Below are positions 259-27,241 of a stretch of DNA of 34,514 nt, in pieces. Made by a program: the position numbers and the translations under genes. Source of the stretch: Candidatus Saccharimonadota bacterium (GTDB taxonomy: Bacteria; Patescibacteriota; Saccharimonadia; Saccharimonadales; UBA4665); assembly GCA_029288515.1 (NCBI GenBank), contig JARIHB010000166.1, forward strand, positions 1 to 34,514, given 5' to 3'. The notes beneath the pieces were generated by a model, which made no database searches, was not told the DNA's origin, and was given only the letters and a program-made list of their open reading frames with translations. Position 1 is the stretch's first letter. Each line of letters begins with the position of its first letter.

Positions 259-1482
259 ATGGATAGTTACGAATTTTCTAGTGAAGACTACGACAAAGCC
301 GAAGATCATTCTGTGCTTCGGCTGCCCAACGGCGAACAGGTGCATTTTCAGGCTTTCATGGACAGAGCCCAGATGGCGGGCGAAACCGTGCTGCACGCCA
401 GTGCGTTCCAACCCGGTGATATGGTGATCTTTAAGCCGGATGAAGCTGACCCGTTGGCCTCACCGACCGATTTTGTAGTAATGACGGTCGATCATACGCA
501 CTGGGAGTCATTGGGCCTGAACGATGCGCCGAGCGTGCATTCTATATGCAGCCTGCAGGGCACAGCTGTGCCGGAAGAGTTTACTGACCAGCCTATGCAT
601 TTTGTCGGAAGCGCTGTTGGGCTCAGCAATGCTGAGCTCGGAGGCCAAGTGGCGACTCATATGGAGCCACGATTTACGACCGTTGACGGGAGGCAAGTGC
701 TCGGCTTTAGCAACTATAGATATGCAGAAACCTTCCGTCTGGACGAAGACGGCCTCCAATCACTCGGGCCTAACGAGCTGGAGGCTACGATACGAAACGA
801 GTCAACGCGACATACCAACCACCTGGAACGCGTGCGAAGCCTGGCAGGTCTTTTTGGCTATGACATCACTGCAGAAGACCAGCCAGATGTGATGGTTGCC
901 CTGGACCGAGGTCAATATATGGTAGAGTACCGAGGAGGGCGCAGCGCCAACCATTTAACAGTGCTCGACCCGCAAACCGGGCTTTGGATGCAGGCACTAT
1001 ACTACGGCAGCGACAAGCAAATATTACAAGTGTCGGTAGCTGATCTGCGCGAACGCCGTCTGTCGTCGGTCTTTGCCGACGAGGATTACGGTATCAGTAC
1101 CGCCTATCAGATACGGGATGTCAACCCGGGTATCACCACCTATACTACAGCGCCGCGCTACGGACTGGATATGATTTGCTACCGGCCCTCTGCAGAGGTG
1201 TCAAGGTATCAGCTCGGTATACCGCCAGCCAGCGAGCATGTTCCATATACAATCCCAAGCCCTGACCTGTTAATCTCACCCGACGGCACGCTGCGCATCG
1301 GCAGCACTCTATCATATGACACAATGTGCGAAAATCACCCCGGTCTGGCCGAACAAGTGACCAGCCGTATCAGCGTCACACCAAACCCCGACGGCCCGCC
1401 AACATTGCACATCGGCGATAAGACCGTGGAACTGCCTGACCCGATCCCTCTCCTTGAGCACTACACACGGGTGCTACATTAA
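259..1482 (+). CDS. Hypothetical soluble protein (407 aa) with acidic N-terminus
   Basis: Long ORF after an AT-rich intergenic stretch; N-terminus MDSYEFSSEDYDKAED; no TM segment, signal peptide or recognised motif. Confidence 0.8.
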   Translation: MDSYEFSSEDYDKAEDHSVLRLPNGEQVHFQAFMDRAQMAGETVLHASAFQPGDMVIFKPDEADPLASPTDFVVMTVDHTHWESLGLNDAPSVHSICSLQGTAVPEEFTDQPMHFVGSAVGLSNAELGGQVATHMEPRFTTVDGRQVLGFSNYRYAETFRLDEDGLQSLGPNELEATIRNESTRHTNHLERVRSLAGLFGYDITAEDQPDVMVALDRGQYMVEYRGGRSANHLTVLDPQTGLWMQALYYGSDKQILQVSVADLRERRLSSVFADEDYGISTAYQIRDVNPGITTYTTAPRYGLDMICYRPSAEVSRYQLGIPPASEHVPYTIPSPDLLISPDGTLRIGSTLSYDTMCENHPGLAEQVTSRISVTPNPDGPPTLHIGDKTVELPDPIPLLEHYTRVLH

Positions 1483-1556
1483 TTAGTCCACTGTCTTTCT
1501 TCTACGTTACGCGCTACCGACAGCATTAGATAGGCATACTTACTAGTCTTAGCATC

Positions 1557-2159
1557 CTAAACTTGCTCGATCAGCTCCAGCCGGCGCACAATTGATCTGG
1601 GGGATAGGATTGTACCGGGGGAGGTGACGGCATTAGCGCCGATTTTACTGTCATCGCCAATGCAGGCGCCAAATTTCGTTATGCCAGTTTTTATCACCTT
1701 ACCGTCCCACATTACAGAGATTATTTTATCGTGGCGTTCGTTGTAATGATTAGCAGTAACTGAACCGGCCTCAAAATTGACCCGGCTGCCGATAATCGAG
1801 TCGCCCACAAAGTTAAAGTGGGCCAGTGCTGTGCTTGCGCCGATAAGGCTATGCTTTACTTCGCAGCCAGGGCCAATAGAGGAACCGCGGCCAACGTACA
1901 CGCCGCCGCGCAGTAAGCTATGGAGGCCTACAAAGGAATCTGCTGCAATGATAGCTGGCGCAAGAATTGTGGCAGCGGGATCTACTCGGGCAGCCGTATG
2001 GATGGCGACTCCATCTTTTATGATATATTCCCCACTCAGATGGGACACTGCATCACGAATCAGATTTTCTATACGTTCAATTGCTTGCCACGGATATGGG
2101 CACGCGCTCAGCTCCGGGAATTGCTCTATTATATCAGTACAGAAAAGTGTAAGCGTCAC
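1557..2159 (-). CDS. Hexapeptide-repeat (left-handed beta-helix) acyltransferase, resembling the GlmU C-terminal domain
   Basis: Hexapeptide repeats and the GlmU-like segments IGPGCEVKHSLIG, AHFNFVGDSIIGSRVNFEAG and KFGACIGDDSKIGANAV; the GTG start overlaps the upstream TGA (GTGA). Confidence 0.85.
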   Translation of the reverse strand: MTLTLFCTDIIEQFPELSACPYPWQAIERIENLIRDAVSHLSGEYIIKDGVAIHTAARVDPAATILAPAIIAADSFVGLHSLLRGGVYVGRGSSIGPGCEVKHSLIGASTALAHFNFVGDSIIGSRVNFEAGSVTANHYNERHDKIISVMWDGKVIKTGITKFGACIGDDSKIGANAVTSPGTILSPRSIVRRLELIEQV

Positions 2160-4898: not shown

Positions 4899-6065
4899 TT
4901 AACGCTGGACGAAAAAACCAGGTTCGCTTGGATCCATCAGGAATCCTTCACCGAGGTCGGGCAAACCATCGCGGAGCATGGCGGCAATAGCCAAACAACC
5001 TATTGGCTCCTGGGGGTACAGCGGGTGCCGTAAACGCTCCTCGATAGCAGTTTTTGCCTGAACGAGTATGTCACGCGCCGGAGCGGCATAATCACCAGGC
5101 ATGCTCTCAATAAGCTCACTGGCATACCGTTCAAGGAACAGCGGGGTTATGTCCTCGTACGGCAGCTCTGTAACGAATTTCAGAAGATCGCTATCACTTA
5201 GGCGTGGATTAAAGTGTCTATACCGCGCGTTGTCATCGTCGCTTGGGCTTTTACCCTCCGGAGTAATCACTCCACTTTCGTGTTTCACCAACGATTGAGC
5301 CATCCCTAACCGGACGGCCGCGTTTAAGGAGTCGGGCTCCTCATAATCATCGGGAATATCCACTGCCACTGTCGTTTCTTCGTCTGCCGTAGCAAATAAA
5401 CCTTGAGGTGCCAGACGCATGAAATGCCGACGCTGTAATTGCGTAGAAGCAGGTCCGGTAAAGCCAACGCGAATAGCTCGTTCATCGTCAAGTTCGTTCA
5501 CACCCAATTCTTTGACGTGTACTTGGGTTTCGGCGGTAGCCAGTATTGTGTTTCCGTCGCTTGGCTCTCTCCCGTACAGCACCTCGCCTTCTTCCGAAGC
5601 TATGCCCTCTAGTTGCCTATAAAAGGTGAAGCCGAATCCCAGCAGAAGTCCACGGTGCGTGCCGATTACTCCCCGAGTGGCATCTACAAATGACCGGCTG
5701 TAGACCGGCGCGTCAGGCTCAAGGGGTAGTCGTACGCTGTAAAGTGCTGCTTCACCCTGGCCGTGATTGCCTGCCGGCCACAGACCGACTAGATCGGCGA
5801 AAGCAGTCATCGGGCTAAACTCCACGCGGCGTACCAGCTGCCCTGTCTCGTCGACATGCATCGAGTTGCGCATACGCATATCCGGTGCCAGCAGGCCAGA
5901 TTGAAGAGTAACAATCGTACCGTCCCCGGAGGCAAGGCATCCCAGGTTAAGGGTATCGTGCTCTTCTGCCCGTTCGTACGCGAGGAATTCAGCTAACTGG
6001 TAATCGCTCATACGAGTTATTGCTTCTTGTGCAAGAGGATGGGGGGTTTCGGCGGGTAGTGGCAT
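4899..6065 (-). CDS. Hypothetical soluble acidic protein (about 388 aa)
   Basis: Long ORF. The start is placed at ATG 6065 (MPLPAETPHP) because TATGAT lies 6 nt upstream and TTGGAT 18 bp further. No recognised family. Confidence 0.75.
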   Translation of the reverse strand: MPLPAETPHPLAQEAITRMSDYQLAEFLAYERAEEHDTLNLGCLASGDGTIVTLQSGLLAPDMRMRNSMHVDETGQLVRRVEFSPMTAFADLVGLWPAGNHGQGEAALYSVRLPLEPDAPVYSRSFVDATRGVIGTHRGLLLGFGFTFYRQLEGIASEEGEVLYGREPSDGNTILATAETQVHVKELGVNELDDERAIRVGFTGPASTQLQRRHFMRLAPQGLFATADEETTVAVDIPDDYEEPDSLNAAVRLGMAQSLVKHESGVITPEGKSPSDDDNARYRHFNPRLSDSDLLKFVTELPYEDITPLFLERYASELIESMPGDYAAPARDILVQAKTAIEERLRHPLYPQEPIGCLAIAAMLRDGLPDLGEGFLMDPSEPGFFVQR

Positions 6066-7124: not shown

Positions 7125-8177
7125 TTATGCCTCGCCTGGCGGCACAATCCGAAGCCACTCCTCTGGAACCAGCTCTGCAGCCTTCTTAACCGCCTCAGGG
7201 AGAATATGGTGCGAGACATCACCCAACAAGCCTCCGGCTTTCAAAGCCGGGCATTTCAGACGTTCGATGTGCAGAACAGCTGCTGACGGCAGATGTAGTT
7301 CGCCTTGGGCAGTCAAAATTATTTTAGATATATCCGGCGGGTCCGGTGGCGGGGGCGGCATAGACAGACGCCCCGCATCAAACTCCGGCGTCCGGCCGGT
7401 GTATGGGCCAAGGCGCTCGCTGTGGAACTCGTCTGCCCGGAAGTTAGCCAAGCCGGTGAATGCCCGTGACTGGCTTGCCTCGGCAATAGCTTCCGGGTCA
7501 ATCGGCTGGGCAAGCAGTTCTGGTGTCAGTTCTTGGTCAGTCTCTACGCCCGTTAGCAGCAACATATAGACGCGGGAAGCGCCAGCCAGCGAGTTCTCGG
7601 CAATGTTGTGAGCGGCAGCACTGTCCGAGCTGCTAATGCCTGCTATTGCTATGTCCTCCGGGAGGGGCGGTACGGGCAAGCCGCTCTTTATGGCTTCTTC
7701 GGTGCGGCGTTGGAGCGTGGCGTAGCTAAGCGCATCGGTGAGATAGCGTTGATACGGCGGCAAGCTACCGGCTGCGGCCTGCGCCAGCGGTTCAAACGGC
7801 TCACCCATAACGTCCGAATCGAGATCACCGATGAGCGGCCGGAACGGCTCATCGGCAGGTATTTCCGCGCCCCGTCGTTGCATAGCGCCCCGCAACATAC
7901 TCATCGCTACGTGGTCGGTAATTACGCCGCGCACTTCCTCATGCTGCAGCGGTCCGGCCATGCGCGTCATAATCTCGCCCAGCCCGTAATAGTAGCTGGC
8001 CTCACGTTCGGCATCCGGTACGGCTAAGGCCGCATGGAACAGTTCGGCGGAGCTCGATTCAGCCAGCGGATCGGTACGACCCAAATCAGTCGGCACCAAA
8101 GCCCGAGCCCGCTCTATGAGCTCTGGCCATTCGGGCGGTATTTCGCGGGTGTGACGAGGAGGAGTTATGCCTTCCAT
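7125..8177 (-). CDS. Hypothetical soluble Pro/Glu/Ala-rich protein (350 aa)
   Basis: Long ORF, convergent with marR; poly-Pro linker (MPPPPPDPP) and a KCPAL motif near the C-terminus; no recognised family. Confidence 0.75.
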   Translation of the reverse strand: MEGITPPRHTREIPPEWPELIERARALVPTDLGRTDPLAESSSAELFHAALAVPDAEREASYYYGLGEIMTRMAGPLQHEEVRGVITDHVAMSMLRGAMQRRGAEIPADEPFRPLIGDLDSDVMGEPFEPLAQAAAGSLPPYQRYLTDALSYATLQRRTEEAIKSGLPVPPLPEDIAIAGISSSDSAAAHNIAENSLAGASRVYMLLLTGVETDQELTPELLAQPIDPEAIAEASQSRAFTGLANFRADEFHSERLGPYTGRTPEFDAGRLSMPPPPPDPPDISKIILTAQGELHLPSAAVLHIERLKCPALKAGGLLGDVSHHILPEAVKKAAELVPEEWLRIVPPGEA

Positions 8178-8388
8178 ATCGGATAATTATTACCACGCAC
8201 CAGTTGCTTTTACAAATAAGTTTTATTGTTTCAGGGCCGGTTTGTCTGCCTTGGCAGTACGTACCGCGGAAGTTCTGCGGTGTAAAGCGCTGTGGATAAT
8301 ATAAAATGTTCGCATATTTAATGCGATTTTAATAAATAAGGAGGAGAATAGTAGGTACAAAGGGGTGGTAATTAAAAGGAGGGTAGTC

Positions 8389-11868: not shown

Positions 11869-11897
11869 TTCACAAAATAATAATTATATGGTATAAT
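11869..11897 (+). promoter_or_regulatory. Sigma70-type promoter, probably leaderless
   Basis: TTCACA (11869-74), 17 bp spacer, then extended -10 TGgTATAAT ending at 11897, 6 nt before ATG 11904. Confidence 0.7.
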
Positions 11898-11903: not shown

Positions 11904-13142
11904 ATGAATTTTGAGAACGGAGATATGGGCAAAGATTTTCCTGAATTTGATTCTGGGGCGTTTGACCGTGAATTACAACACCTTCTGGGTGGCGAGGGAA
12001 TGCAAGAAATGCATTTTCTACCTACCCAGGGTCATGGGGACGCCGTACCCACGGACTACGCGAATCCAGCCGGCGGCATAGAAGGCGCAACGCCGCACAA
12101 TCCCATGGAAAACGTCGCTCGGGCACTGGAGTACCTCCAAGGACAGCAAGCCCATGCGTTCGGTGCAATGTTCAAGGCCGTAGTGAAGCATGAAGACTTA
12201 GGCCCTCCGACGCAACCTGATGAAGATACGCTTGCAGAGTTCGGTCCTGACAGCATTGCTCATTTGGATAGTGGCACGGAAGCAGCAGGGCTAGCAATGG
12301 ACCAACAGCTCAACACCATGCCGTATGAAAAAGACATAGCCGCAGCCGGTCTTGCGCTGTCGGATAATCCATTCGCGCCAGGCCTGCGCATACAAGACGG
12401 CGGGCGCTTTGCCGCCGCTTTGCAGCAAACGCCCGAGGGCAGCGCCAGCACCCAGCTAACAAGCGGGCTCCACGATATGATTAGGAGCAGTATGTTCGCG
12501 CTCAGCCGGCCGTATGTCCCTACCATAAACGACGAGGACTACGCTACCTACAGCGTACCGCGCACTCCCACCGAAAGCGAAACGCTCGGGGAAACGAGCG
12601 AAGGAACAAGACAGTCAATAAGCCAAATGACACTGCACGCTTCAGAGATTGCCGACGGCTTAGAGCATACCGGCGCTAATCCGGAAGACGTTGCCAGCCT
12701 GCGCCGTCTTCATAGCGCCGTAACCGAAGGCATGCTGCCACACCTGTCCGTTGCGCTCGATTTAGATCTGCTCCAAAAACCAACAACTTACTGGAGTGAT
12801 CGGGTCTGGACGCAGTTCTCTCACGAAGACTGGAACAGGATTTCTACATTCTTTGACGACGCAGAACGTGTAGCTCCCGACCGCTCGGTAACATTACATG
12901 ACCTCGCAAGCACGTTCGCGGACAACTTGCAGGATTTGATAGACGGCAATTTCCAGCCTACAGAGCGTCCGCCATTCCCAACGTATGATGACGCAGAGGA
13001 CCTTACCTTCACGTCCCATAGAACACCAGAAGAGTTAAAACAAGATGCCATCGTCGAGGCGCAAGAGCGTAGTCGGCAGGAACAGCTCGTTGCTCGCCTG
13101 CGTGCTATCGCCGGCAGGCATGCGCCCGCTACAGAACAGTAA
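11904..13142 (+). CDS. Hypothetical protein, paralog family A copy 1
   Basis: Shares AGL...I.DG.RF.A.LQ and LLQKPTT...WTQFSHEDW...FFD with the two downstream ORFs. Confidence 0.85.
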   Translation: MNFENGDMGKDFPEFDSGAFDRELQHLLGGEGMQEMHFLPTQGHGDAVPTDYANPAGGIEGATPHNPMENVARALEYLQGQQAHAFGAMFKAVVKHEDLGPPTQPDEDTLAEFGPDSIAHLDSGTEAAGLAMDQQLNTMPYEKDIAAAGLALSDNPFAPGLRIQDGGRFAAALQQTPEGSASTQLTSGLHDMIRSSMFALSRPYVPTINDEDYATYSVPRTPTESETLGETSEGTRQSISQMTLHASEIADGLEHTGANPEDVASLRRLHSAVTEGMLPHLSVALDLDLLQKPTTYWSDRVWTQFSHEDWNRISTFFDDAERVAPDRSVTLHDLASTFADNLQDLIDGNFQPTERPPFPTYDDAEDLTFTSHRTPEELKQDAIVEAQERSRQEQLVARLRAIAGRHAPATEQ

Positions 13143-13216
13143 AGCCGCGCGACGCGCGTTCACTCACGTCAATTTCGCAGGCTTCCTCAACACGCTGCGT
13201 GCTATAGTGTATGGCT

Positions 13217-14440
13217 ATGGATGAACGCTACAACGGTGGTAACGACAGAGATGACCAAAATCCGTGGGCCGATATCAATCCATACAATAGCCCTGTGCTG
13301 CCACCTGATACCAATTTCCCGAGTCCCGATTTACTGCCAGCATACCCCGTCGATGTGCCCGACACAGCGGCTGCACACCAAGAAGCAGTGCCTGTCGAAC
13401 CAAACCAGCCACCTGCCGTAGCTGTATTAAAAGAGACTTTTGCATTCTACGAGGACCGGCACATGCATGCCATGGAAAAGACTGCAGCGGTTGCTGATTT
13501 TATAGATACAATCACCGCCATTGCAGACATCCTGCGGCCGGCGTTGCCGGAACTAACCGATGAAGACGTTCGCGCTCTCACCTTATATGAATTTAGAGCA
13601 TGGTTTCATGAATACCACACCGACGCCCTACTGCATAGCGCCACGTTAGAGGAGGCCGGCCTCCGAGAAACGGATAGCCTTATCAACCCCCAGCCTTACA
13701 TCGCCGACAGCAACAAGCTCGCGGCACTATTGGGCGAAGCGGTTGCACCCGATGACACGCTGCGCAGCGGTATTGAGAACGCGCTCACGCTCACGCTTGA
13801 CCAGCTACGGGCCGGTTACCTGCCTTACGGAACGTCTGATGAACGTGGGGCGCCGGCAAGGGAATGGCAGGGCAGTATAGCGCCCGACGTATCCCCGGGA
13901 GAAGAAGCTGAATTCCGGGGCAAAGTAGAGGGCGCGTTAGACCACGCATCACTGCTGGCTGGACCGCTTGGGGCACTTGGCATCAGACAACGCTTGCGGG
14001 AAGACTTTCTGCTTGCCGGCATCGCCCACAAGGAAGACGTACTGGGCGCCTTTTTTGTGGTTCACCACTGGGATTTACTGCAGCCCGCCACCAGCAAACC
14101 CATAGACACCAAGTGGACACAATGGGGTCCGGAAGATTGGCGGGGGCTTGAGGGTTTCATAGAGAACCTGGCGGTCACTGCCCCCGACAATTCAGAAACG
14201 TTGCGGACGATTGCCGCTACCGTCAGCACCAACATTTCTATGTACCGTGACGGTATATTGCACGATCCGATACCGCAGCGGCCACTGCCCGAACTGCTAC
14301 AATTTCGAGAGGAAGACATACTAGCCATCGAGGAAAGAGAGCCCTTAACCGAAGTCGAACAGGAACGCTTGCGGCAGCGCAGGGTTGAGACGCTCATTGC
14401 TATGGATAGAGTAGCCCAAAGACTACAACAATTTGTATAG
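13217..14440 (+). CDS. Hypothetical protein, paralog family A copy 2
   Basis: Contains WDLLQPATS...WTQWGPEDW...FIE. ATG 13217 is preferred over 13211 because TGcTATAGT at 13200-13208 would be only 2 nt from 13211. Confidence 0.85.
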   Translation: MDERYNGGNDRDDQNPWADINPYNSPVLPPDTNFPSPDLLPAYPVDVPDTAAAHQEAVPVEPNQPPAVAVLKETFAFYEDRHMHAMEKTAAVADFIDTITAIADILRPALPELTDEDVRALTLYEFRAWFHEYHTDALLHSATLEEAGLRETDSLINPQPYIADSNKLAALLGEAVAPDDTLRSGIENALTLTLDQLRAGYLPYGTSDERGAPAREWQGSIAPDVSPGEEAEFRGKVEGALDHASLLAGPLGALGIRQRLREDFLLAGIAHKEDVLGAFFVVHHWDLLQPATSKPIDTKWTQWGPEDWRGLEGFIENLAVTAPDNSETLRTIAATVSTNISMYRDGILHDPIPQRPLPELLQFREEDILAIEEREPLTEVEQERLRQRRVETLIAMDRVAQRLQQFV

Positions 14441-14472: not shown

Positions 14473-15612
14473 ATGCATGAGCTTGAACCCGAACATAGAG
14501 CGCCCTACGATGCGGCCGCAGAAGCCATACACCACAGCATGAACGACGCCGATACCGCGGGATTATTACCTACCCACGTAGCCGACAATGAACCCCCGCA
14601 ACCTCCTGAAGAAAGTATCACAGTGGAAACGCCGGATGGCGATCAGCTTACATCTTTATTCAAACAGCTTGCTCTTACACGTAACCGTATGTTTAGCCAC
14701 GTTATGGGCGGCGACAATCGAGGGGCCAGCGCTACGAATAGTGATGATGGTCCCCCTCGTTGGCCAGGTGTTACCGACGCGCAGCAATTAACGCACATAC
14801 GCAGCGAACTGGACGTACCGATCCTCCACGATATTATGGATAGCGCCGGATTACGTTTGCTCCCGGAGTCGCTTGTTCCGACAGCGGAAATCGTTGACGG
14901 CGCGCGGTTTACGGCAACCCTTCAGCGCATTCATCAGCCCACTACTTCATTAGTACGCGGTGTTGAGGATACTATTTACCATTCACTGCGTAACATTGTT
15001 AACGCATACGTACCGCAGGTATGGGATCCCGCGTATGAAACGTTTCATATAGGCACCCCCTTGCGCAGCGACCTGACGCCGGATTCGAGCGCGTACCAGC
15101 GCTATCATACCGCCATAACGCAAACCGTCGTACACAGCCAGGCATTGGCTGATATACTCGGCAATTGGCACGTCAGCGAAGCGACGCGCACACTGCTGCA
15201 CAGTGTTCGTGAGGCACATGACGAACAGCGGCTGGCAGCGTGGGCTGTCGCGCAACACTGGAACCTCTACCACCCGCCTACCACCCGCGACGAGGACCTG
15301 GAGTGGACTCAGTGGACAACATATGAGGATTGGCAAAAACTGTTCAGCTTTTTTGATGTCATTATAACTACACAAGAGCCGCCGTCTCCCTTCACCAGCC
15401 GGTTGGCACAGACCTTGGCCGCCAATATAGAAAGAAGACGGCGCGGCATACTCGTGCCAAGCGCCGGACAGGCCAGCTCTTCGCACAATATGCATCAAAT
15501 CGCACATACAGCTGAAAACAGATCGCCATTAAACGACCCCCATTACGACCACCTGCTCGCCCAGGCAGGGCACCGGCTTATTAATATCGGAAAGTTTTAC
15601 GCAACGCGGTAA
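14473..15612 (+). CDS. Hypothetical protein, paralog family A copy 3
   Basis: Contains WNLYHPPTT...WTQWTTYEDW...FFD; TGcTATAGT at 14457-14465 lies 7 nt before the ATG. Confidence 0.85.
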   Translation: MHELEPEHRAPYDAAAEAIHHSMNDADTAGLLPTHVADNEPPQPPEESITVETPDGDQLTSLFKQLALTRNRMFSHVMGGDNRGASATNSDDGPPRWPGVTDAQQLTHIRSELDVPILHDIMDSAGLRLLPESLVPTAEIVDGARFTATLQRIHQPTTSLVRGVEDTIYHSLRNIVNAYVPQVWDPAYETFHIGTPLRSDLTPDSSAYQRYHTAITQTVVHSQALADILGNWHVSEATRTLLHSVREAHDEQRLAAWAVAQHWNLYHPPTTRDEDLEWTQWTTYEDWQKLFSFFDVIITTQEPPSPFTSRLAQTLAANIERRRRGILVPSAGQASSSHNMHQIAHTAENRSPLNDPHYDHLLAQAGHRLINIGKFYATR

Positions 15613-16094: not shown

Positions 16095-17393
16095 ATGGAA
16101 TACGACAGCTATCCAGAGGCTATACCGCCTGCTTATGATCGTACTGGTAATCTACCCTATGAGGGCTTAGAGGTTTTACCTCAACATGCAATGTATGAAC
16201 AACCTTGCACGCCGGACGATATATATTTTCTGCCCACTGCTGTAGTTCATAGTCCAGAAACAACAGATCAGCCCGCAGATATTGTATCGATCAGCGAGAT
16301 GCTCAGAGGGCGCGAGGCGCCCGATACACTCAACGACCGGCATCCGGACTGGCCGCCCATTACATTAACGTATTACTTCGGCATGCACGGACGGGCAGGC
16401 CATGCGCAGGATTTAGGCGAGCATGTGCGCAGTGCGCAGGTATATTGTTATGAGCACACTGACGGCCCCCAGCTCAGCAGTCCTTTGAAAACGTATGCCG
16501 AAGATCAAGAAGAAGGTGTAGAAGCACTGCTTGATCGTACTACCAATAAGGAAGGCGCCTCGGTACGCGGCATGATTCATGAAGACCTATTTCGGGCAGT
16601 GCACGGCACCGGTGTAGTTATCGGACATTTTGATTTAAGCCCCGCGCAGACCAAAAATTTTAGGCCGACAGCGGCAGCCCATGACCTTACAAGGAACATG
16701 AATAAACTGAGTGCCGGCAACACCTTCGACGAAACACTAGATGCCGCCGGCCATGCATTAAAGACGCTCTACACCGGTCAGGCGCACCGGGACATACACA
16801 TGATCGGCCCGCGGCATAATGAGGACGGGACGGTTACAGCCGGAAATTTCGAAGATGAAATGGGCCGTATTTTCGCTGCGTACCCTCATCTGAAAGCCCG
16901 AGACCACATACAGGTAGTCGCCTCGATGGGTGCAACTCATGAGTTCGCTCAAATGGCGTGTGCTGCCGCATCTGGCGTGGAAGTTAGAGCAATACATGCA
17001 AACGGCGATCAGCATGCAATGATTGAGGATGACATTCGTGAAGCGCTCAGTCTTGGACAACAGCCCACACGTGAACAATTAGCACGCTTCTATATGGAAT
17101 CGGTTACCCTAGCCGCCTTAGCAAACGGCATGGAGCATGACACTGTGTTTGCTAATTCTGCCAGTTCCGAACCACTGCAATATGCCAGGACTATTGCCGA
17201 AACGGTTGATATTAAAGATATTGCCGTCTTGCACGACGTTGTCGCTCAAGGATGTAATGTAGCGCAAGCGGCACAATTGATTAATATCACGCTTACCACC
17301 AAGGGGCTGCCGCCGCTCGCCCGATCGTACGCAGATATGCGGCCATTTATTGCCGCGCACGCCGCAGCTCAGGCTACCATCAGACAAACATGA
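16095..17393 (+). CDS. Hypothetical protein with acidic/Pro-rich N-terminus; possible EreA/ChaN/TIKI-like fold
   Basis: Motif order YYFGMH, VYCYE, VIGHFD, RDIHM, VVASMGATH resembles the H...E...D...RD...GxxH pattern of that superfamily. The ORF is solid; the fold call is tentative. Confidence 0.65.
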   Translation: MEYDSYPEAIPPAYDRTGNLPYEGLEVLPQHAMYEQPCTPDDIYFLPTAVVHSPETTDQPADIVSISEMLRGREAPDTLNDRHPDWPPITLTYYFGMHGRAGHAQDLGEHVRSAQVYCYEHTDGPQLSSPLKTYAEDQEEGVEALLDRTTNKEGASVRGMIHEDLFRAVHGTGVVIGHFDLSPAQTKNFRPTAAAHDLTRNMNKLSAGNTFDETLDAAGHALKTLYTGQAHRDIHMIGPRHNEDGTVTAGNFEDEMGRIFAAYPHLKARDHIQVVASMGATHEFAQMACAAASGVEVRAIHANGDQHAMIEDDIREALSLGQQPTREQLARFYMESVTLAALANGMEHDTVFANSASSEPLQYARTIAETVDIKDIAVLHDVVAQGCNVAQAAQLINITLTTKGLPPLARSYADMRPFIAAHAAAQATIRQT

Positions 17394-18828: not shown

Positions 18829-20013
18829 ATGGAACACAATCCCGACTCTGACGATCCACAACAGCAGCCGAATGGCGATCCCGACAGTCCCTATGGTCAG
18901 CCATATCAGGGCTACCCCGAGCCGTTACTGCCCCCGACAGATAGTTCAAGAGCACCGGGCTTTGCGCCCGACTCTCCTGGCTATGATGCTCCCGGCCTGC
19001 TGGGGGGGAGGATGGACTATTTACCTCCGCGCGGCCCTTTACCGCCAGACATAGAGATGGGTCTCCGATACGACAACGCAATGTCCGAGTTAAACCATAG
19101 GGAAGCCGTTACCTATCCGATCGCCCTCCCCCCCGGCAGAGGCACTCCTGATTCCGCGCGAACAGTCGTTGCCACGAACGATGCGATTCTCACCAGAGAC
19201 TACCGCGGCATCACCGTTGAGCGACAGGGTGAGCCAGGGGCAGCGGCCACCTATGAGCGTTTTTTCAGAAGCTCGGACGGCCGTATACATAAAGATACGG
19301 CCAATGTTGCCGAGCTGCTGCGAGATGTGCCGCCGCCAGGCAGCGTATCGCATCGCGTCCGCGAACGGGCCATCACAGCTGCGCTCACCAAATACGATAC
19401 CTTCCTACACACTATACATCTTGAGCCTGAGATGGTGACGGCCGCAGAAGTTGAAGCGCTTTCAGCCGCCGTTCGCGAAGCCGGGCCGCCGCCAACTTCA
19501 CATCAGAGCGTCCAACAGTTTGTCGACAACCGTATTGTCGCCGAAAGGGCAGTTGATACACTGGACGCCAGGCAAGCAGCACCCCAATTCACACGTAGGT
19601 TGCACGCCTGGCTGCGTAGCCAGGGTAGCGACCCGGACGGTATACAGCAGTTCACAGTAAGCGGCGCACCCGGTAATGCAGATATTACTGTCGCCGCCGG
19701 CTTTAAAAATTTTTCGGACCAACTTCCGCCTATCCCATTCGCCGAAATAACCCTTCGCAGTGCACTTCCTGGTAAAACTATTGCCGAACGACTACGCGAT
19801 ACCAGTCCCGCCGCCCCCGTTCCTATTATTGGCCACCTGCAAGAAACTATTACCTATAGTGTGCCATTAAACGATGAGCCATTCATATGTGTACGGCATG
19901 TAAATATCACTGATTTACAAAACAATGAAGTCGACGATGTAGTAAATAGATTCTATGGCGACACCGATGACCTTCGCATATTGATGGGCTTTCTGTATAA
20001 CCCAACCCCGTAG
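18829..20013 (+). CDS. Hypothetical protein, paralog family B copy 1
   Basis: ATG 18829 follows TTGCAC-18bp-TATAAT (18787-18816); contains YERFF..DGRIHKDTAN..LL.DVPPPG and C-terminal GDTDD...LYNP. Confidence 0.85.
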   Translation: MEHNPDSDDPQQQPNGDPDSPYGQPYQGYPEPLLPPTDSSRAPGFAPDSPGYDAPGLLGGRMDYLPPRGPLPPDIEMGLRYDNAMSELNHREAVTYPIALPPGRGTPDSARTVVATNDAILTRDYRGITVERQGEPGAAATYERFFRSSDGRIHKDTANVAELLRDVPPPGSVSHRVRERAITAALTKYDTFLHTIHLEPEMVTAAEVEALSAAVREAGPPPTSHQSVQQFVDNRIVAERAVDTLDARQAAPQFTRRLHAWLRSQGSDPDGIQQFTVSGAPGNADITVAAGFKNFSDQLPPIPFAEITLRSALPGKTIAERLRDTSPAAPVPIIGHLQETITYSVPLNDEPFICVRHVNITDLQNNEVDDVVNRFYGDTDDLRILMGFLYNPTP

Positions 20014-20025: not shown

Positions 20026-21258
20026 ATGAAAGATTTAGGCGACAACTCCTTCGACGAAGGATATCCATTCTATAACACTCAGCGGCCAGATGACCAGACA
20101 GACGCCCGAGGGTTTGATCCAATGCGTGCTCCAGACTATCTGCCGAATGGCGGTATTCGTGGTTCACTGGACGGCAGCCTGTCGGCTGGCGATCTGCCGC
20201 CCTTCGGCACCGATCAATTTGACAACCGACAACCGCTCGATACCATTACACGCCGCAGCACACGTATGGCATACGATGAGGTGCGGCAAGGTATACAAGA
20301 GACACATATCCCAACTACGTATGAGGTAGCCCAGCCCACCGCAGACAGATACGGCTTCGGCGCGACTGCACCGCGAACAGAACTCGTTCATGAAAGTGAC
20401 CTGGGCACTGTCGCAATCGTCAGCGATAGGTACGGACTTACTGTTGATTTCTTTCCCAGTGACGGCTCACCACCGCAATACAACCACTATTTTACCCACG
20501 GGCCAAAAGGCGCTGTACACAAAGATACCGTCAACCGGGGTTCGTTACTGTATGAAGTACCACCGATGGGCAGCGTGCCGCATGAAACGCGGGAACGGAT
20601 GATTTCTTTTGCCCAGAAACGTGCAGCGCTCAACAATAAACAATCTGCGCAATCTATAGCCGTTGGCCCAGCAGAGATACAATACCTGGCCGGGCTGATG
20701 CGCGATGCGCACGCACCGCGCATGGCATTCGATGAACTGTACACCATCGGCCAACGCCGGGCAGAAGCCCACACACCAGTGAGCGAGCATGCGGCGGAAA
20801 CCGCTTCTGAAGTGTTCGACTATAACCTCCAGCGCTATTTGGAGCGACGCGGTTATGATTTGAGCGCATTTGCATTTCCGATCGACAGACAAGAGCAAGT
20901 GAGCGCCGCCGGCGAATATATGTACGTTACAGCCGGATATCGTACTACTGGAAATGCTGGCGTACCTCCGATCCCAACCGTGACAGTTGATGTGTATATA
21001 CCACTTGAACCCGACGAAGCGGTTGCAGCGCTGACTTCCCAAAGGATTGATACCGGACCTATTTCTCCGCCGGTAATCGCGTTCAGACAACGCGCCATTA
21101 CATACGAATATGACAGCCAGAGACGCATACTGACCGGCGTCGTAACAACCAGCCTCATATGCGATAAAAATATACACGGCCTTACACAGAGCGGCTTCAA
21201 TGCTGATGCCGACGATGCACAGGCCATAAATCTGTTTCTGCAGCAACAAGAATTTTGA
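20026..21258 (+). CDS. Hypothetical protein, paralog family B copy 2
   Basis: Contains YNHYF..KGAVHKDTVNR.SLLYEVPPMG and C-terminal FNADADD. Confidence 0.85.
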   Translation: MKDLGDNSFDEGYPFYNTQRPDDQTDARGFDPMRAPDYLPNGGIRGSLDGSLSAGDLPPFGTDQFDNRQPLDTITRRSTRMAYDEVRQGIQETHIPTTYEVAQPTADRYGFGATAPRTELVHESDLGTVAIVSDRYGLTVDFFPSDGSPPQYNHYFTHGPKGAVHKDTVNRGSLLYEVPPMGSVPHETRERMISFAQKRAALNNKQSAQSIAVGPAEIQYLAGLMRDAHAPRMAFDELYTIGQRRAEAHTPVSEHAAETASEVFDYNLQRYLERRGYDLSAFAFPIDRQEQVSAAGEYMYVTAGYRTTGNAGVPPIPTVTVDVYIPLEPDEAVAALTSQRIDTGPISPPVIAFRQRAITYEYDSQRRILTGVVTTSLICDKNIHGLTQSGFNADADDAQAINLFLQQQEF

Positions 21259-21266: not shown

Positions 21267-22601
21267 ATGACTGACAAATCTGAGGCATTTAACGATGGAT
21301 ATGGGGAAACGGGTGACGGGTTGGGTGGTTTTCCTCACGTATACGATGCCTTACGTTATTTGGGCCTGGACGGCGATGCTGGCATTGCGCCGGTGGTCGA
21401 TCCGGATACTGGCTACACAGGCGACGTAATGAGTGATAGCGGGTTGCACGCCGGCCACAGCCGCTCCTACGACGCTGCCGACGCCGCGCCCGCATATGAA
21501 CCAACAGATAACGTACCCTTTGGCGTTGAACATTTTGATGGTGCCGCTGAGCCGGACATTGAGGACAGCCAGCGTGCCGTAGACACCTTCGTCACTATAC
21601 AAGAATCGTTACTCAGCGATCCTTATAATCAACATTTTATAGATAATCCGCCGATTGTCCGTGAGGGCACCGAAACAGAGGTTGATACTGTGTTGCATCT
21701 TTCTTATAACGGTGATGATGGAGAGGCCGACATTACGGTAAGCGCCGGGCGAGGCCTAGCAGTCGACTTTACATCAAACGACGGCAGCATATCGTATAAC
21801 CGCTACTTTATGGCGTACAGCACCGCGGGTAATTGCACGGGCATATATAAAGACAGGGCTAACCGCCAGGCATTGTTAGAGAACGTACCAGGACCCGGCG
21901 AGGCGCCGCAGCTGGAACGCTTGGCGGCAATTGCCTCCATTGAGCACAGCCACGACACCCTGAATGCTACCCTAGGATTATACACACCGGTCACCGACGC
22001 TGAATTGCGGCATGTTATGCTGTTCGTCTCGCAGGCCAAGCCGCCGGCCGCACCTTTTACTGCTTTGGCAGATATTGCCCATAAGCGCGGCACAAGTATC
22101 CAACCCATCAACCCCGCAGACAGCACTTTTGCAGGTACCCTTTTTAGCGATGTCATCCGCGACTTTCATGAGTACACGGCTGAACAGGGAGAATTACCCG
22201 GTAGTGATCCAGATACAATCCACCGCCATTACAGAGGCGAACATGATACGGCACTGCGCATTTCAGTCACCTATCACCACCATACTGTCGATCTGCCAGC
22301 GCCAGCCCTGCACATCGATATGGAAACGATTCTTTCCGCTGCAAGAATGGAGGCAGAACTCGCCAAACGCGACGAGCATCTATACAACGTGCCTGAGGGC
22401 AAGTGGGAGGCGCGTCTTTCCTACCTGATACTGAACGGACAACTGTTTGGCCGGCTGATTGAACAATTCGCTACGCAGGAGAGAGTAGTATATCAGTCAG
22501 ATAATTCATTTACGGCAGACGGTGACGATGTCATAATGGCGCGCGGCGTGATGTACAATCCGTCATTCAGCCAGGCAGATACGTTACATAGGGAGGAATA
22601 A
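21267..22601 (+). CDS. Hypothetical protein, paralog family B copy 3
   Basis: ATG 21267 after GAGG; contains YNRYF...GIYKDRANR..LLENVPGPG and FTADGDD...MYNPSF. Confidence 0.85.
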   Translation: MTDKSEAFNDGYGETGDGLGGFPHVYDALRYLGLDGDAGIAPVVDPDTGYTGDVMSDSGLHAGHSRSYDAADAAPAYEPTDNVPFGVEHFDGAAEPDIEDSQRAVDTFVTIQESLLSDPYNQHFIDNPPIVREGTETEVDTVLHLSYNGDDGEADITVSAGRGLAVDFTSNDGSISYNRYFMAYSTAGNCTGIYKDRANRQALLENVPGPGEAPQLERLAAIASIEHSHDTLNATLGLYTPVTDAELRHVMLFVSQAKPPAAPFTALADIAHKRGTSIQPINPADSTFAGTLFSDVIRDFHEYTAEQGELPGSDPDTIHRHYRGEHDTALRISVTYHHHTVDLPAPALHIDMETILSAARMEAELAKRDEHLYNVPEGKWEARLSYLILNGQLFGRLIEQFATQERVVYQSDNSFTADGDDVIMARGVMYNPSFSQADTLHREE

Positions 22602-22602
22602 T

Positions 22603-23739
22603 ATGACAGGTTTCGAACAGCAAGGCAAGCCGCCGTCGGAGGGAGGCGAGGGGAACTTTGATACTTTTATGGCTTCCGGTGGCACAGCAGGAGGGAATGA
22701 TCTTGGCCAGGTCCACTATCTGCCAGACAAGGCTGCGGCAGACGCAGGGCAGGGGTATGCTGCCCCTTTTATAGCTCATGAGGGCAATCCGCCTGATGTA
22801 TATCGCGGCCTCGAGGGCCCGGGAGACGATCCATTCAGACTACGACGTTTTGACATTGCCACGGCCACCGAAGACGACTTGCTGCACACCTCGGATCTGC
22901 ATCGTGCTGTCGTTGTCGATATGTTCACAAAATGGCAGGCGTACACCGATACCGAAGATGGCACAGAAAAAATAGACATGGAATGCGAACAGGTACGCAG
23001 TGACGGCGACCGGCACATAACAGACACATTGCTTATTACCGCCGACCGTACAAGAAGTACTCTTGCCGTACAGCTTAAAGGAAACTCCTTGGTACACACC
23101 TACTACCACGATGATGCGGGTAATGTGCGCACCGCCATAGGTAATGACCAGGGGGCACATGCACAGCCGCCACAGGAAGGCACTCATGTGGATCGGTACG
23201 CCACCTACAACGAGCTAGAGCGTATTAGACGCCTGAGTACCACCGCTCATCCTAAAACAGTACCCTTCTCGGACCTAACAGTACTGGCGCTTACTCATTT
23301 TATAGACCCGCCAGCTATGGGCCCCGACGAAACGAAACATGCAGCCAAAGAATTTAAAGAACTCTTTGGCAGTATGGTACCGTCGCATCATACTAACAAT
23401 GATCTGCATTACGGAGACAGCCTGGAAGTGAGCACCACTACACGAGGCGTTCATGACGCAAACCCCAATCTTCAGTTTACCTACGAAAAACCGGCAGGCA
23501 GTGAATATGCCGTCATACTACCCGGCGCAGGTGAGCTACGGAGTATTTCTCTGGCGGCAGAGCACATTACCATTCGCTTCTACATTACAGGAGGCGAACT
23601 GCGGTGCGCTTACCGGCGGCAGGTATTTACTCCAGACCGGACGAAACCATTAGCAGACACCGGACACTTACGCATGCATGCCGACCGGGCGCTGCTGCGC
23701 GCAGCACGCAATGCCGCGCGAAAACCGCTGCCCGCATAG
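22603..23739 (+). CDS. Hypothetical protein, paralog family B copy 4 (divergent)
   Basis: GGAGG Shine-Dalgarno; HTYYHDDAGNV, ATYNELERI...AHPKTVPFSDL and C-terminal HADRALL..ARKP align with family B blocks. Confidence 0.8.
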   Translation: MTGFEQQGKPPSEGGEGNFDTFMASGGTAGGNDLGQVHYLPDKAAADAGQGYAAPFIAHEGNPPDVYRGLEGPGDDPFRLRRFDIATATEDDLLHTSDLHRAVVVDMFTKWQAYTDTEDGTEKIDMECEQVRSDGDRHITDTLLITADRTRSTLAVQLKGNSLVHTYYHDDAGNVRTAIGNDQGAHAQPPQEGTHVDRYATYNELERIRRLSTTAHPKTVPFSDLTVLALTHFIDPPAMGPDETKHAAKEFKELFGSMVPSHHTNNDLHYGDSLEVSTTTRGVHDANPNLQFTYEKPAGSEYAVILPGAGELRSISLAAEHITIRFYITGGELRCAYRRQVFTPDRTKPLADTGHLRMHADRALLRAARNAARKPLPA

Positions 23740-24795: not shown

Positions 24796-25869
24796 ATGAA
24801 CGACGAAGCACCGGCGCCTCCTACACCTGATACGCCGCAGCCACCTGGCACACCACACCGTCCGAGCATACTCGTTCTGACTGCAGCCATACTCCTTGTC
24901 GGTGGCATTATTACTGCCGCGTGGGGTATAACCCACCATAAAAGATCATCGCCGAATTACACCGCTACGACCACCAACAGCACCGCTCCGCCCCAAAAAC
25001 CGACAATCACCGACGACGGCACGTTGCACCTTAACCCGGCAGCCAATTACGGCAATAAATATGCAGACGGCATACTGCCAGTTGGCGACAATAGGTACAC
25101 CACAAGCGGCGCTCGCAAGGGCTACGTATACGTGTGCCGCGCCAACTTCGTACCCGCCAGCCAAGCCGGTGCTCAGGTGCGCGGGCCATGGTTTGTCAAC
25201 AATAATACCCAGTGGGACATCAACAAAAAGGCAGCAGTGCAGGGATCTATTACCTGGGACCAACAGATAACTATCAACGTAAACGGCGGGCGCCGTATTA
25301 TCACCACTAACGACCTGCCAGATCATCACACGGGTCAATTCCCAGTCAGCCGGAGTGACCCGGCGCGCATCTATGACGCCAATCCCAACTCTATAAGCGC
25401 GCAAACATTAACCTACGATCTGCCGGCAACGCCGCAAACCACCAGCTCCAACTGCATGGGCGGGGAAGTGGGCATCATGCTCACCGGCGTGGCGCTGTTT
25501 AACGCCTTCGACGCCGGCGGACGCGACGCCGGTGCCTGGGAAGTGCAAGATACCTGCGACGGCCACCCGCAAAACAAAGGTGAGTACCACTACCACACCC
25601 TCAGCCGCTGCATTGCCGACACCAGCGTAGAAAAGGTTATCGGTTTCGCCCTTGACGGCAATCCTATAACCGGGCCGAAGGTAAGCGAGAGCAACATACT
25701 CACCACCAGCGACCTTGATGAATGTCATGGCATTACCAGCGACATTGTTCTGGACGGCGTGCGCAAAACCGCCTACCACTATGTAATGACCCAGGACTTC
25801 CCTTACTCAGTGAGCTGTTTCCGGGGCACAGCTATACAGCCGCCAGGCCAACACGAAGGGCGGCCCTAG
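24796..25869 (+). CDS. YHYH-domain protein with N-terminal membrane anchor
   Basis: DTCDGHPQ..GEYHYH, IGFALDGNPITGP, LDECHG and YHYVMTQDFPY motifs; one TM segment near the N-terminus. Confidence 0.9.
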   Translation: MNDEAPAPPTPDTPQPPGTPHRPSILVLTAAILLVGGIITAAWGITHHKRSSPNYTATTTNSTAPPQKPTITDDGTLHLNPAANYGNKYADGILPVGDNRYTTSGARKGYVYVCRANFVPASQAGAQVRGPWFVNNNTQWDINKKAAVQGSITWDQQITINVNGGRRIITTNDLPDHHTGQFPVSRSDPARIYDANPNSISAQTLTYDLPATPQTTSSNCMGGEVGIMLTGVALFNAFDAGGRDAGAWEVQDTCDGHPQNKGEYHYHTLSRCIADTSVEKVIGFALDGNPITGPKVSESNILTTSDLDECHGITSDIVLDGVRKTAYHYVMTQDFPYSVSCFRGTAIQPPGQHEGRP

Positions 25870-25897
25870 CCACACAAAACTATGCTACTATAGTGCA

Positions 25898-27241
25898 ATG
25901 AATGAGCACGACAACGGTATGAGCGACAGAAATGGAGAAGGGTTTGATCCATACGAGGAGCAGCCTATACCCAGGGATGCTATGAGCGACAGTGGGCTGC
26001 ACGCCGGTCATGACAGTCCCTATGGCGCCAGCGACGAGACTTCGGCGCCAGTTGAACATCAGTTTGAGCCGCTTACGGCTTCGGAATTTGATACATCACC
26101 ATTTGAGGGCCGGGTTCCGGTTGATGCTTCCGAACGTGACGCAGTCGTCAGCACCTTTATGGCTATTCATGATAGGACTGTGCAGGCGTACCCAGACTTC
26201 CAGGATGTCGACTTTGTGGCGAGTAGAGAGGGCATACTACGGGAGATGAGTTTCGCGGGCGAGGTAAGCGATGAGACTACCCTGGCGCGGATTACCGTTG
26301 CACATGGGAATATGGTAACCGGCGAACCGGCTGAATCATCCCAGATAATTATAAAAAGAACTGACACTCAGGGTCAGCCGCTATCGTTCGACTATTACTA
26401 TATTCGGGAGGATGGAGCCGTATATAAAGACAAAGTCGATTTGCTGGCCGACTCTATCCGACCTCGTGCCAATGAAATGTCATCCCGGGAGCAGCGCGAT
26501 GTAATCACACAGCTTGCACGTGAGCGAAGAGGTTTGTACAGAGATGCGGTTGCGGCTGGCCTGATGCGCATACCGGTGGGGATCGACGAGATGACCCATG
26601 TAGAACGGTTTGTTTCTCAGGTTCAGCCGCAAACAATATCATTCGGACAAATACATACGTACATCCTCGAGAGGGCTACCAACCCCTCGTTCAACCCGGC
26701 AGCGCTTGAGGAGGGTGCAGATCCTCAGGAGCTTCATAAGGCGCTGGGGCTCATAGAAGACTCGAAGGCTGGAGCGCTCGCATTTACCAGGTACACCGCA
26801 CGCCGCATTCAGGAAGGCGCCGACAAAATCGACAGCACCACCGGAACGCTGCCTATCGAGGTCCCCGCAGACTCTATGACCGCTCCTGCAACTCTTGGCG
26901 CTCAACTGACCCTTGGCTACGAGGAGGGCGTACCCTATGCGCAAATGACCGCTCAGGCCCTGTTGATCAGACCTCGGCTGGAGGCAATACGCTCATACTG
27001 TATAGAGAGAGGCATACCATTCCCTGAAGAGCTGACGAGCGGTCGTCTGCATTCTGAGCTACGCGTGACCGTTGACTCAGACGACTGCCTGCGCATGTCA
27101 CATCAGCTAACAGTGCTCAGCGACGACCGCAGGCATAGGGTTACCTACGCCCAGGGAGATGCGATCGCTGACAAGTCAGTGGCAGGTTTTCTTCGAAACT
27201 TCTACCGCAATCCGGTATTTAATCTCCGCTTCAAGGTATAG
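25898..27241 (+). CDS. Hypothetical protein, paralog family B copy 5
   Basis: Contains FDYYYIREDGAVYKD, VGIDEMTHVERFVSQVQP and C-terminal ADKS...FYRNPVF; MSDSGLHAGH is shared with copy 3; TGcTACTAT lies 6 nt before the ATG. Confidence 0.85.
   Translation: MNEHDNGMSDRNGEGFDPYEEQPIPRDAMSDSGLHAGHDSPYGASDETSAPVEHQFEPLTASEFDTSPFEGRVPVDASERDAVVSTFMAIHDRTVQAYPDFQDVDFVASREGILREMSFAGEVSDETTLARITVAHGNMVTGEPAESSQIIIKRTDTQGQPLSFDYYYIREDGAVYKDKVDLLADSIRPRANEMSSREQRDVITQLARERRGLYRDAVAAGLMRIPVGIDEMTHVERFVSQVQPQTISFGQIHTYILERATNPSFNPAALEEGADPQELHKALGLIEDSKAGALAFTRYTARRIQEGADKIDSTTGTLPIEVPADSMTAPATLGAQLTLGYEEGVPYAQMTAQALLIRPRLEAIRSYCIERGIPFPEELTSGRLHSELRVTVDSDDCLRMSHQLTVLSDDRRHRVTYAQGDAIADKSVAGFLRNFYRNPVFNLRFKV

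What the first reader, a model, noticed from the sequence alone, without database searches (positions are those of the whole stretch)
259..27241. Candidate effector repertoire: about 12 same-sized soluble orphan proteins, most with acidic disordered N-terminal leaders
Seen in sequence: ORFs at 259, 6065(-), 8177(-), 11904, 13217, 14473, 16095, 18829, 20026, 21267, 22603 and 25898 are all about 350-450 aa and lack TM segments or Sec signals. Most begin with D/E/P/G-rich stretches studded with F/Y (MDSYEFSSEDYD, MNFENGDMGKDFPEFD, MEYDSYPE, MKDLGDNSFDEGYPFY, MTDKSEAFNDGY, MNEHDNGMSDRNGEGFDPYEE). This leader style cuts across otherwise unrelated C-terminal domains. Established: Saccharibacteria are obligate epibionts of Actinobacteria and encode type IV pili and, in studied strains, T4SS-like genes. 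Inference: the leader could be a translocation or chaperone signal on a diversified set of proteins delivered to the host. No secretion genes are present in this window.
Basis: partly seen in the sequence, partly recalled or inferred. Interest (0 to 1): 0.8.

Follow-up and report, generated by a model that had tools for sequence, protein, structure and literature searches.

The report
Shared address tag on orphan proteins
In this tiny parasitic bacterium about 75-80 unrelated-looking proteins, nine of them in this window, begin with the same floppy acidic tag carrying a short conserved motif, which likely works as an address label for sending a fast-evolving set of proteins into the host bacterium, although export itself is untested.

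Summary
All 12 ORFs are soluble, with no Pfam or NCBIfam family. Nine carry an acidic, Pro/Gly-rich, predicted-disordered leader with a conserved motif, [LMF]xxx[DHG][FLY][LH]P, near residues 30-45; 259, 4899 and 7125 do not. Genome-wide about 75-80 proteins (~9% of coded residues, ~48 families) carry it: 74 of 1077 N-termini against 2 of 749 internal windows. They cluster in tandem and have half the usual lysine. The bodies are not all unrelated: 8 of 12 fall into two paralog families. ORF 16095 is a predicted EreA/ChaN (TIKI-fold) hydrolase; other carriers have zincin, PRTase or methyltransferase signatures. The genome encodes VirB4-, VirB3-, VirD4-like proteins and six T4SS pilins. Relatives keep an acidic leader and a start-proximal EF/FE dipeptide on homologs, but the LP motif was essentially confined to this genome, so it is not a pan-Saccharibacteria signal. 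Best reading (50%): an N-terminal export tag on a diversifying effector repertoire; no export, partner or toxicity was shown. I found no description in the papers searched.

The parts
11904..13142 (+). Leader carrier, family A paralog 1 (412 aa); motif core HFLP at residue 37 (12012-12023)
   Evidence: no relative outside the window found
13211..14440 (+). Leader carrier, family A paralog 2 (409 aa); motif core DLLP at residue 40 (13328-13339)
14473..15612 (+). Leader carrier, family A paralog 3 (379 aa); motif core GLLP at residue 30 (14560-14571)
16095..17393 (+). Leader carrier (432 aa); motif core YFLP at residue 44 (16224-16235); residues 1-60 predicted disordered; body is a predicted EreA/ChaN (TIKI-fold) hydrolase with conserved H98, E120, D180, R232, H282
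18829..20013 (+). Leader carrier, family B (394 aa); motif-like sites LLPP at residue 33 and DYLP at residue 63
20026..21258 (+). Leader carrier, family B (410 aa); motif core DYLP at residue 37 (20134-20145); residues 5-53 predicted disordered, body of two beta-meander-plus-helix domains without a clear fold match
21267..22601 (+). Leader carrier, family B (444 aa); motif variant MxDSGLHA, core at residue 59 (21441-21452)
22603..23739 (+). Leader carrier, divergent family B member (378 aa); motif core HYLP at residue 38 (22714-22725)
25898..27241 (+). Leader carrier, family B (447 aa); motif variant MxDSGLHA, core at residue 33 (25994-26005)
   Evidence: (repeat D8)
259..1482 (+). Soluble lysine-poor orphan (407 aa) with acidic start and EF dipeptide but no LP motif; membership of the class uncertain
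4899..6065 (-). Soluble lysine-poor orphan (388 aa); no motif and hardly any leader; probably not a member
7125..8177 (-). Soluble orphan (350 aa) with acidic Pro-rich start, no significant motif (p 0.056); has a paralog on contig C79

Best explanation
The leader is likely an N-terminal address tag: a predicted-disordered acidic stretch with a start-proximal EF/FE dipeptide and a conserved [DHG][FLY][LH]P motif, which a single chaperone or secretion ATPase would recognise to export dozens of unrelated, fast-evolving proteins into the host cell, most plausibly through the Saccharimonadia type IV secretion system. Shown: the shared motif on ~48 unrelated families, disorder of the leader in two structure models, absence of Sec signals and TM segments, tandem duplication, lysine depletion, enzyme signatures in some bodies, presence of T4SS genes. 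Inferred: a common binding partner (strong inference), that the partner is an export machine (moderate), that the machine is the T4SS and the destination an actinobacterial cytoplasm (weaker). The lineage-specific LP motif would then be a signal that drifts together with its receptor.
For: Motif score >=10 in 74 of 1077 N-termini vs 2 of 749 internal windows; with one random member from each of 75 families the regex occurs in 19 on average vs 1.5 in shuffles, maximum 7. All six Leu and all four Pro codons are used at the motif and no upstream k-mer is enriched, so the constraint is on protein, not DNA. The motif is kept in the one close homolog from another source (P0002, 40% identity). Leader pLDDT <50 in both AlphaFold models. 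37 of 81 carriers are adjacent to another carrier vs 9 by chance. 3 of 72 carrier or acidic-leader proteins have a Pfam hit at E<=1e-5 vs 62 of 77 neighbouring soluble non-carriers. Bodies include a predicted EreA/ChaN hydrolase, a fold also used by HopBA1, PMT and RRSP, zincin-like families in which some paralogs have lost HExxH, PRTase-loop proteins (weak E 0.014-0.018) and a CheR-like methyltransferase. The N-terminal module is exchangeable: zincin homologs in G001 carry a ~95-aa helical N-terminus instead, and family B homologs have leaders from almost none to over 200 aa. T4SS parts are present: VirB4-like and PrgI on C48, six T4SS pilins on C110, VirD4-like on C11 and C76.
Against: No export, partner or host effect was tested. 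The LP motif scores in only 1 of 91 outside family B homologs (1.1 expected), and in 0 of 334, 0 of 79, 1 of 306 and 0 of 215 sampled genes of G003, G017, G209 and G005, although the T4SS is conserved across the class; a leader profile found only two weak matches in 22 congeners. The EF dipeptide is enriched among lineage-specific proteins only in G000 (83 of 312 vs 25 of 250), not in five other samples, and is present in only 4 of the 12 window ORFs. With one-per-family training and all A/B paralogs removed, only 5 of the 9 window carriers stay below p 0.05. Well-studied T4SS substrate signals are mostly C-terminal (recalled, not from a call). The coupling-protein homolog is not essential in S. 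epibionticum (passage, 10.1101/2025.01.22.634366). Carriers are not linked to secretion genes, and no immunity-like or chaperone-like small gene is paired with them in the window. Some homolog families (B single-domain form, 16095 family) occur as single-copy genes with short or no leaders.
Confidence: 0.5

Rival explanations
1. The leader is an internal docking or localisation tag: it would bring these proteins to a hub inside the epibiont (pole or attachment-site scaffold, condensate, or a storage compartment of swarmer cells) without export.
For: A short linear motif in a disordered acidic region fits any docking partner. No Sec or TM signal. No linkage to secretion genes. A lineage-restricted motif fits a lineage-restricted hub.
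Against: An internal role does not easily explain ~9% of a reduced genome being spent on rapidly diverging tandem paralogs at 23-35% identity with degenerate active sites, nor the lysine depletion in every GC bin.
Confidence: 0.2
2. The leader is a degron or protease-adaptor site (ClpCP-type) that would keep potentially harmful conflict or defence proteins short-lived or latent inside the cell.
For: Disordered N-terminal tails with aromatic residues are typical unfoldase initiation sites (recalled). A Clp ATPase lies next to two carriers on C155 (L034). Bodies include hydrolase, protease and PRTase-CE-like signatures known from conflict systems.
Against: One adjacency is anecdotal. No antitoxin or sensor partner is paired with the window carriers. 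Housekeeping proteins almost never carry the motif.
Confidence: 0.12
3. The proteins are exported, but by a route other than the T4SS (type IV pilus / type II-like machinery, vesicles or direct membrane contact), and may act at the host surface.
For: Nine T2SSE-family ATPase segments score above cut-off. N-terminal signals are unusual for T4SS (recalled). The motif varies while VirB4 is 88% identical between G000 and G209.
Against: No prepilin-like or Sec signal in carriers. Acidic, cysteine-poor soluble enzymes-like bodies fit a cytoplasmic destination as well as a surface one.
Confidence: 0.12
4. The leader has no shared function; it spread by duplication and exchange of a 5' gene segment and is a by-product of how new genes arise in this lineage.
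For: One DNA repeat is visible between paralog leaders (55 nt, 71%). Carriers have lower GC3 than other genes (0.54 vs 0.58).
Against: Only the 4-8 motif residues are conserved while flanks and codons are fully diverged, across many families, which indicates selection on the peptide.
Confidence: 0.06

Closest known systems
Effector repertoires marked by a short N-terminal motif (oomycete RxLR, Plasmodium PEXEL; recalled, RxLR and PEXEL papers seen only as search listings)
   Same: Short conserved motif some tens of residues from the start, acidic flanks, unrelated fast-evolving bodies, lineage-specific tandem expansion.
   Different: Those are eukaryotic and follow a Sec signal peptide; here there is no signal peptide, the organism is a bacterium, and export is unproven.
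Type III secretion N-terminal signals with chaperone-binding motifs, and the Legionella Dot/Icm acidic E-block signal (both recalled)
   Same: Disordered, compositionally biased signal on diverse soluble cargo; acidic character as in the E-block.
   Different: No T3SS was looked for or is expected; the E-block is C-terminal. Carrier C-termini show no net-charge difference from other proteins (p 0.84; slight Arg excess, p 0.01).
The Saccharibacteria 'T4SS effector array' (TM7x small secreted proteins; PMC7427843, PMC12592800, passages read)
   Same: Proposed host-directed cargo of the same T4SS.
   Different: Those are 4-6 small Sec-signal proteins inside the T4SS locus, now read as VirB2-like pilins (PMC10633639, PMC12857230, passages); this genome has them on C110. 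The carriers here are 200-850 aa, signal-less and scattered.
EreA/ChaN-like (TIKI) superfamily: EreC, BcR135/136, ChaN, HopBA1, PMT C2, RRSP (PMC7979712, PMC6254334, passages read) - for ORF 16095 only
   Same: Parallel beta-sheet core; conserved His, Glu, Arg, His in the same order as EreC H50/E78/R261/H289; five of these six structures appear among the top 19 structural matches.
   Different: Z only 5.4-7.7; the glutamate just before the first His is absent; no Pfam or PDB sequence match; substrate unknown.

Membership tests
T4SS-translocated effectors | Genome encodes VirB4, VirB3/6/8-type membrane parts and a coupling ATPase | tested here: met
   VirB4-like (5' part, contig end) and PrgI on C48, six T4SS pilins on C110, VirD4-like on C11 and C76; VirB6/VirB8 not identified by Pfam
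T4SS-translocated effectors | Soluble protein without Sec/Tat signal or TM anchor | tested here: met
   78 of 81 carriers have no TM segment; window ORFs (hydropathy scan only, no SignalP)
T4SS-translocated effectors | C-terminal translocation signal (charged or E-block) | tested here: not met
   No net-charge difference in the last 25 residues (p 0.84), slight Arg excess; the shared feature is N-terminal
T4SS-translocated effectors | Signal binds the coupling protein or an adaptor | not tested
   No complex prediction was obtained
T4SS-translocated effectors | T4SS-dependent appearance in the target cell | not testable with these tools
   Needs co-culture experiments
Saccharibacteria T4SS pilin ('effector') array | Small Sec-signal proteins with PF18895, inside the T4SS locus | tested here: not met
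   PF18895 matches only the six C110 genes; none in the window
EreA/ChaN-like (TIKI) superfamily (ORF 16095) | His-Glu pair, basic residue and second His conserved | tested here: met
   H98 invariant; E120, D180, R232, G279, H282 in >=90% of 18 sequences; first Glu of the 2His/2Glu set absent
EreA/ChaN-like (TIKI) superfamily (ORF 16095) | TIKI alpha/beta core fold | tested here: inconclusive
   EreC Z 7.7 (177 aligned, rmsd 4.0), ChaN 7.3, HopBA1 6.4, 2qgm 6.3, PMT 5.4, interleaved with tetrapyrrole methylases at Z 6-7.4; Foldseek HopBA1 prob 0.84, E 0.11
Toxin-immunity (polymorphic toxin) systems | Small immunity gene directly downstream of each toxin gene | tested here: not met
   Window carriers follow each other or housekeeping genes directly

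The most novel reading that the evidence does not exclude
This is the first visible substrate signal of the Patescibacteria type IV secretion system: a soil-type Saccharimonadales lineage devotes ~9% of its proteome to a Legionella-scale arsenal of about 80 injected enzymes and pseudo-enzymes aimed at another bacterium, tagged by an N-terminal motif that drifts between lineages, and stripped of lysines to escape the actinobacterial Pup-proteasome pathway.
Probability: 0.25. Interest if true: 0.92.

Novelty: new variant of a known kind. Interest (0 to 1): 0.72.

Why it matters
The T4SS is essential for epibiotic growth but its role is called completely unknown (PMC11665869, passage; PMC10633639, passage), and no substrate is established in the passages read. 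A concrete motif and a list of ~80 candidates turn the open question of how Patescibacteria manipulate their hosts into a direct test: fuse a 60-residue leader to a reporter, mutate four residues, look in the host. Even if the tag proves internal, a lineage-specific address motif on 9% of a minimal proteome is an undescribed sorting system.

Tried and rejected
Upstream DNA motif or regulon: no k-mer enriched after correction (best 0.76). DNA-level repeat as cause of the motif: rejected by codon diversity. Lysine depletion as a GC artefact: holds in all five GC bins and with a motif-only definition; it is shared by 24 acidic-leader proteins without the motif, so it marks the wider class. Family B fold: no Foldseek match at E<=0.001 in PDB or viral libraries, best VIA Z 6.6 to generic beta-sheets; whole chain only, domains not folded apart, so a known fold is not excluded. 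ESM Atlas gave no usable hit for 20026 or 13211. Family A: no outside relative and no PDB profile match; searches scored only the top 7999 candidates of near length. Profiles of two other carrier families had no PDB match. Single-domain family B homologs in 9 genomes share no neighbours, so context gave no function. HExxH is enriched (10 of 77 vs 12 of 485, p 2e-4) but is supported by family conservation only in two families; at least three hits (C197, C142, C132) look like chance. No RNA holder was listed for the region. Relatives of ORF 259 could not be searched in the genome index and no complex prediction was obtained, so both remain open. Literature searches that found no description of such a leader: (open-access PMC and bioRxiv only; supplements not read, and supplementary tables of PMC10633639 may list related proteins). 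Earlier scan findings: nothing for this genome; eight loosely matching notes describe other systems.
Full report
Setting. The window is contig C53 of genome G000 (1.21 Mb, 197 contigs, 85.6% complete). I called genes on the whole genome with my own hexamer-based caller (1313 genes, 90% coding; it recovers all 12 ORFs, with a later start for 4899). Start sites from this caller are approximate.

The observation. The 12 ORFs are real, 350-447 aa, soluble by hydropathy, and have no Pfam or NCBIfam family; 15 of 16 other window genes have Pfam hits. Their first 60 residues are acidic (84th-99th percentile of net charge) and mostly poor in Lys/Arg and aliphatic residues. The claim of unrelated bodies is only partly right: 11904, 13211 and 14473 form family A, and 18829, 20026, 21267, 22603 and 25898 form family B; family B has 16 members in this genome at E<1e-5.

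A conserved motif. Among 111 soluble proteins with acidic starts, [HDY][FYL]LP occurs in residues 16-75 of 27 (shuffles: mean 1.1, maximum 6) against 7 of 966 others; a variant [SG][GD]L[HL][PA] occurs in 9 (shuffles 0.25). An EM motif trained without the window, [LMF]xxx[DHG][FLY][LH]P[TG], scores in 9 of the 12 candidates (p 0.001-0.022, 1000 shuffles each) and 0 of 15 other window genes; 259, 4899 and 7125 fail. Genome-wide 74 of 1077 N-termini score >=10 bits vs 2 of 749 internal windows. A stricter test (A/B paralogs removed, one per family, 70 sequences) returned the same consensus (log-likelihood 184 vs 132-167 on five shuffled sets), with an LP-type site picked in 8 of 9 but p<0.05 in only 5 of 9. 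Drawing one member from each of 75 families, the regex is found in 19 on average vs 1.5 in shuffles, so paralogy does not explain it. A second element, an F/Y next to D/E within the first eight residues, occurs in 34 of 59 high-confidence carriers (three doubtful ones dropped by hand) vs 110 of 996 others and 9.7 in shuffles, but in only 4 of the 12 window ORFs. All Leu and Pro codons are used at the motif and no upstream DNA word is enriched: the constraint is on the peptide. AlphaFold leaves residues 5-53 of 20026 and 1-60 of 16095 below pLDDT 50 and folds the bodies well (mean 84.6 and 80.2).

The class. 81 proteins pass the combined motif and composition cut (78 without TM); about four false positives are expected from the internal rate of 3 of 749, and some are visible, e.g. 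a gyrase-like gene. They make up 8.9% of coded residues, fall into 48-52 sequence clusters and sit in tandem (37 of 81 adjacent vs 9 expected). Of 72 carrier or acidic-leader proteins outside the window that I could scan (those on the 39 contigs fetched), 3 have a Pfam hit at E<=1e-5, against 62 of 77 soluble non-carriers from the same contigs. Bodies have half the lysine of other soluble proteins (2.2% vs 4.5%) at equal GC; lineage-specific proteins without an acidic start do not show this (4.7%). Escape from host pupylation is my speculation; no paper holds both terms.

What the bodies are. Family B has 108 relatives at E<=0.001 among 1.84 billion representatives, own copies and two likely spurious repeat proteins included, is patchy in the family (16 of 301 genomes) and expanded to at least ten tandem copies in G209. 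Its model shows two beta-meander-plus-helix domains with no clear structural match and no invariant residue. Family A stays an orphan, with one remote paralog on C164. For 16095 I predicted the EreA/ChaN type from its motifs before folding (note); 17 homologs keep H98, E120, D180, R232 and H282, and the model's structural neighbours include EreC, ChaN, HopBA1, two Bacillus BcR proteins and PMT, at modest Z 5.4-7.7 (family membership and catalytic residues from passages of PMC7979712 and PMC6254334). Elsewhere, a nine-member family has HExxH plus a downstream EExxxE motif, lost in three of seven aligned paralogs; a second family has HExxH in its three complete members; two proteins have a PRTase loop and one is CheR-like. 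Enzymes and decayed enzymes without signal peptides are what an effector set looks like, but not only that.

Relatives. Outside family B homologs mostly keep an acidic leader (71 of 91 full-length) and the start-proximal dipeptide (47 of 91 vs 11.5 in shuffles), but the LP motif scores in 1 of 91; by eye some carry variants (GILP, DMLP), untested. Sampled DNA of relatives holds almost no motif carriers: G003 0 of 334 (400 kb of 1.45 Mb), G017 0 of 79, G209 1 of 306, G005 0 of 215; acidic-leader orphans exist there at lower density, and the 0.67-Mb genome G039 has almost none. G017 and G209 leaders seem to have their own repeated words (by eye). In G001 the zincin body is joined to a helical ~95-aa N-terminus whose best PDB profile hit is ESAT-6, at a non-significant E 0.079. 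So the N-terminal module is exchangeable, and the specific motif is local to this lineage, which argues against a universal Saccharibacteria signal.

Export machinery and literature. The genome has VirB4-like, PrgI, six T4SS pilin, two VirD4-like and several pilus ATPase genes. Passages read say that the T4SS is essential in S. epibionticum and may export proteins (PMC10633639), that its role is unknown (PMC11665869), that the coupling-protein homolog is dispensable (10.1101/2025.01.22.634366, part 1 of 4 and passages), that the earlier 'effector array' consists of small Sec-signal proteins (PMC7427843, PMC12592800) now read as pilins (PMC12857230), and that hosts fight back with Esx secretion (10.64898/2026.09.08.750141), which supplies a reason for an arms race. 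Eight searches found no account of this leader.

Verdict. The leader class and its motif are well supported and apparently undescribed. A common binding partner is a strong inference. Export to the host is the best single explanation (0.5 via T4SS-type routing, about 0.6 by any route); internal docking or degradation remain live rivals. Interest 0.72.

Noticed in passing
L171:1480-2910(-), L179:502-1800(+), L181:1459-2781(-) (genome G001): Three zincin-like proteins with a shared ~95-aa helical hairpin N-terminus; best PDB profile hit ESAT-6 (E 0.079, weak). Possible WXG100-like targeting module in a Saccharimonadales genome.
   Followed up: partly
window 29680-34491 (-): Giant (>1600 aa, 5' end cut) surface protein with nine ~50-aa repeats, LamG and fibronectin-like domains, upstream of a MacB-type ABC pair.
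   Followed up: no
window 8365-9699 (+): Signal-peptide protein with bulb-type mannose-binding lectin repeats and an unassigned C-terminal domain; candidate host-surface adhesin or hydrolase.
   Followed up: no
window 2156-3337 (-): Multi-pass membrane protein with a soluble C-terminal domain and no Pfam family.
   Followed up: no
window 3422-4819 (-), 23833-24729 (+), 24796-25869 (+): Pectate-lyase-like beta-helix protein, secreted GDSL hydrolase and membrane-anchored YHYH protein interspersed with the carriers.
   Followed up: no
window 9834-9908 (-): tRNA-Gln(ttg) next to a DrrAB-like ABC exporter that precedes the family A array.
   Followed up: no
L071:6248-9230 (G017): Two family B genes inserted between rpoC and rpsL, with further acidic-leader orphans after rpsG (gene names from recognisable sequence).
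   Followed up: partly
L128-L136: Single-domain (160-225 aa) family B relatives occur singly in nine genomes with no shared neighbours; probable source of the two-domain expanded form.
   Followed up: partly
upstream of many carrier genes, e.g. window 11880-11903: TATAAT/TATACT-like hexamers a few bases before the ATG suggest leaderless transcripts; not enriched over other genes.
   Followed up: partly
L044:8797-10608 (G000 C79): 604-aa acidic-start protein with a weak SCO2525-type methyltransferase match (E 4e-8, below cut-off), next to the paralog of window ORF 7125.
   Followed up: no
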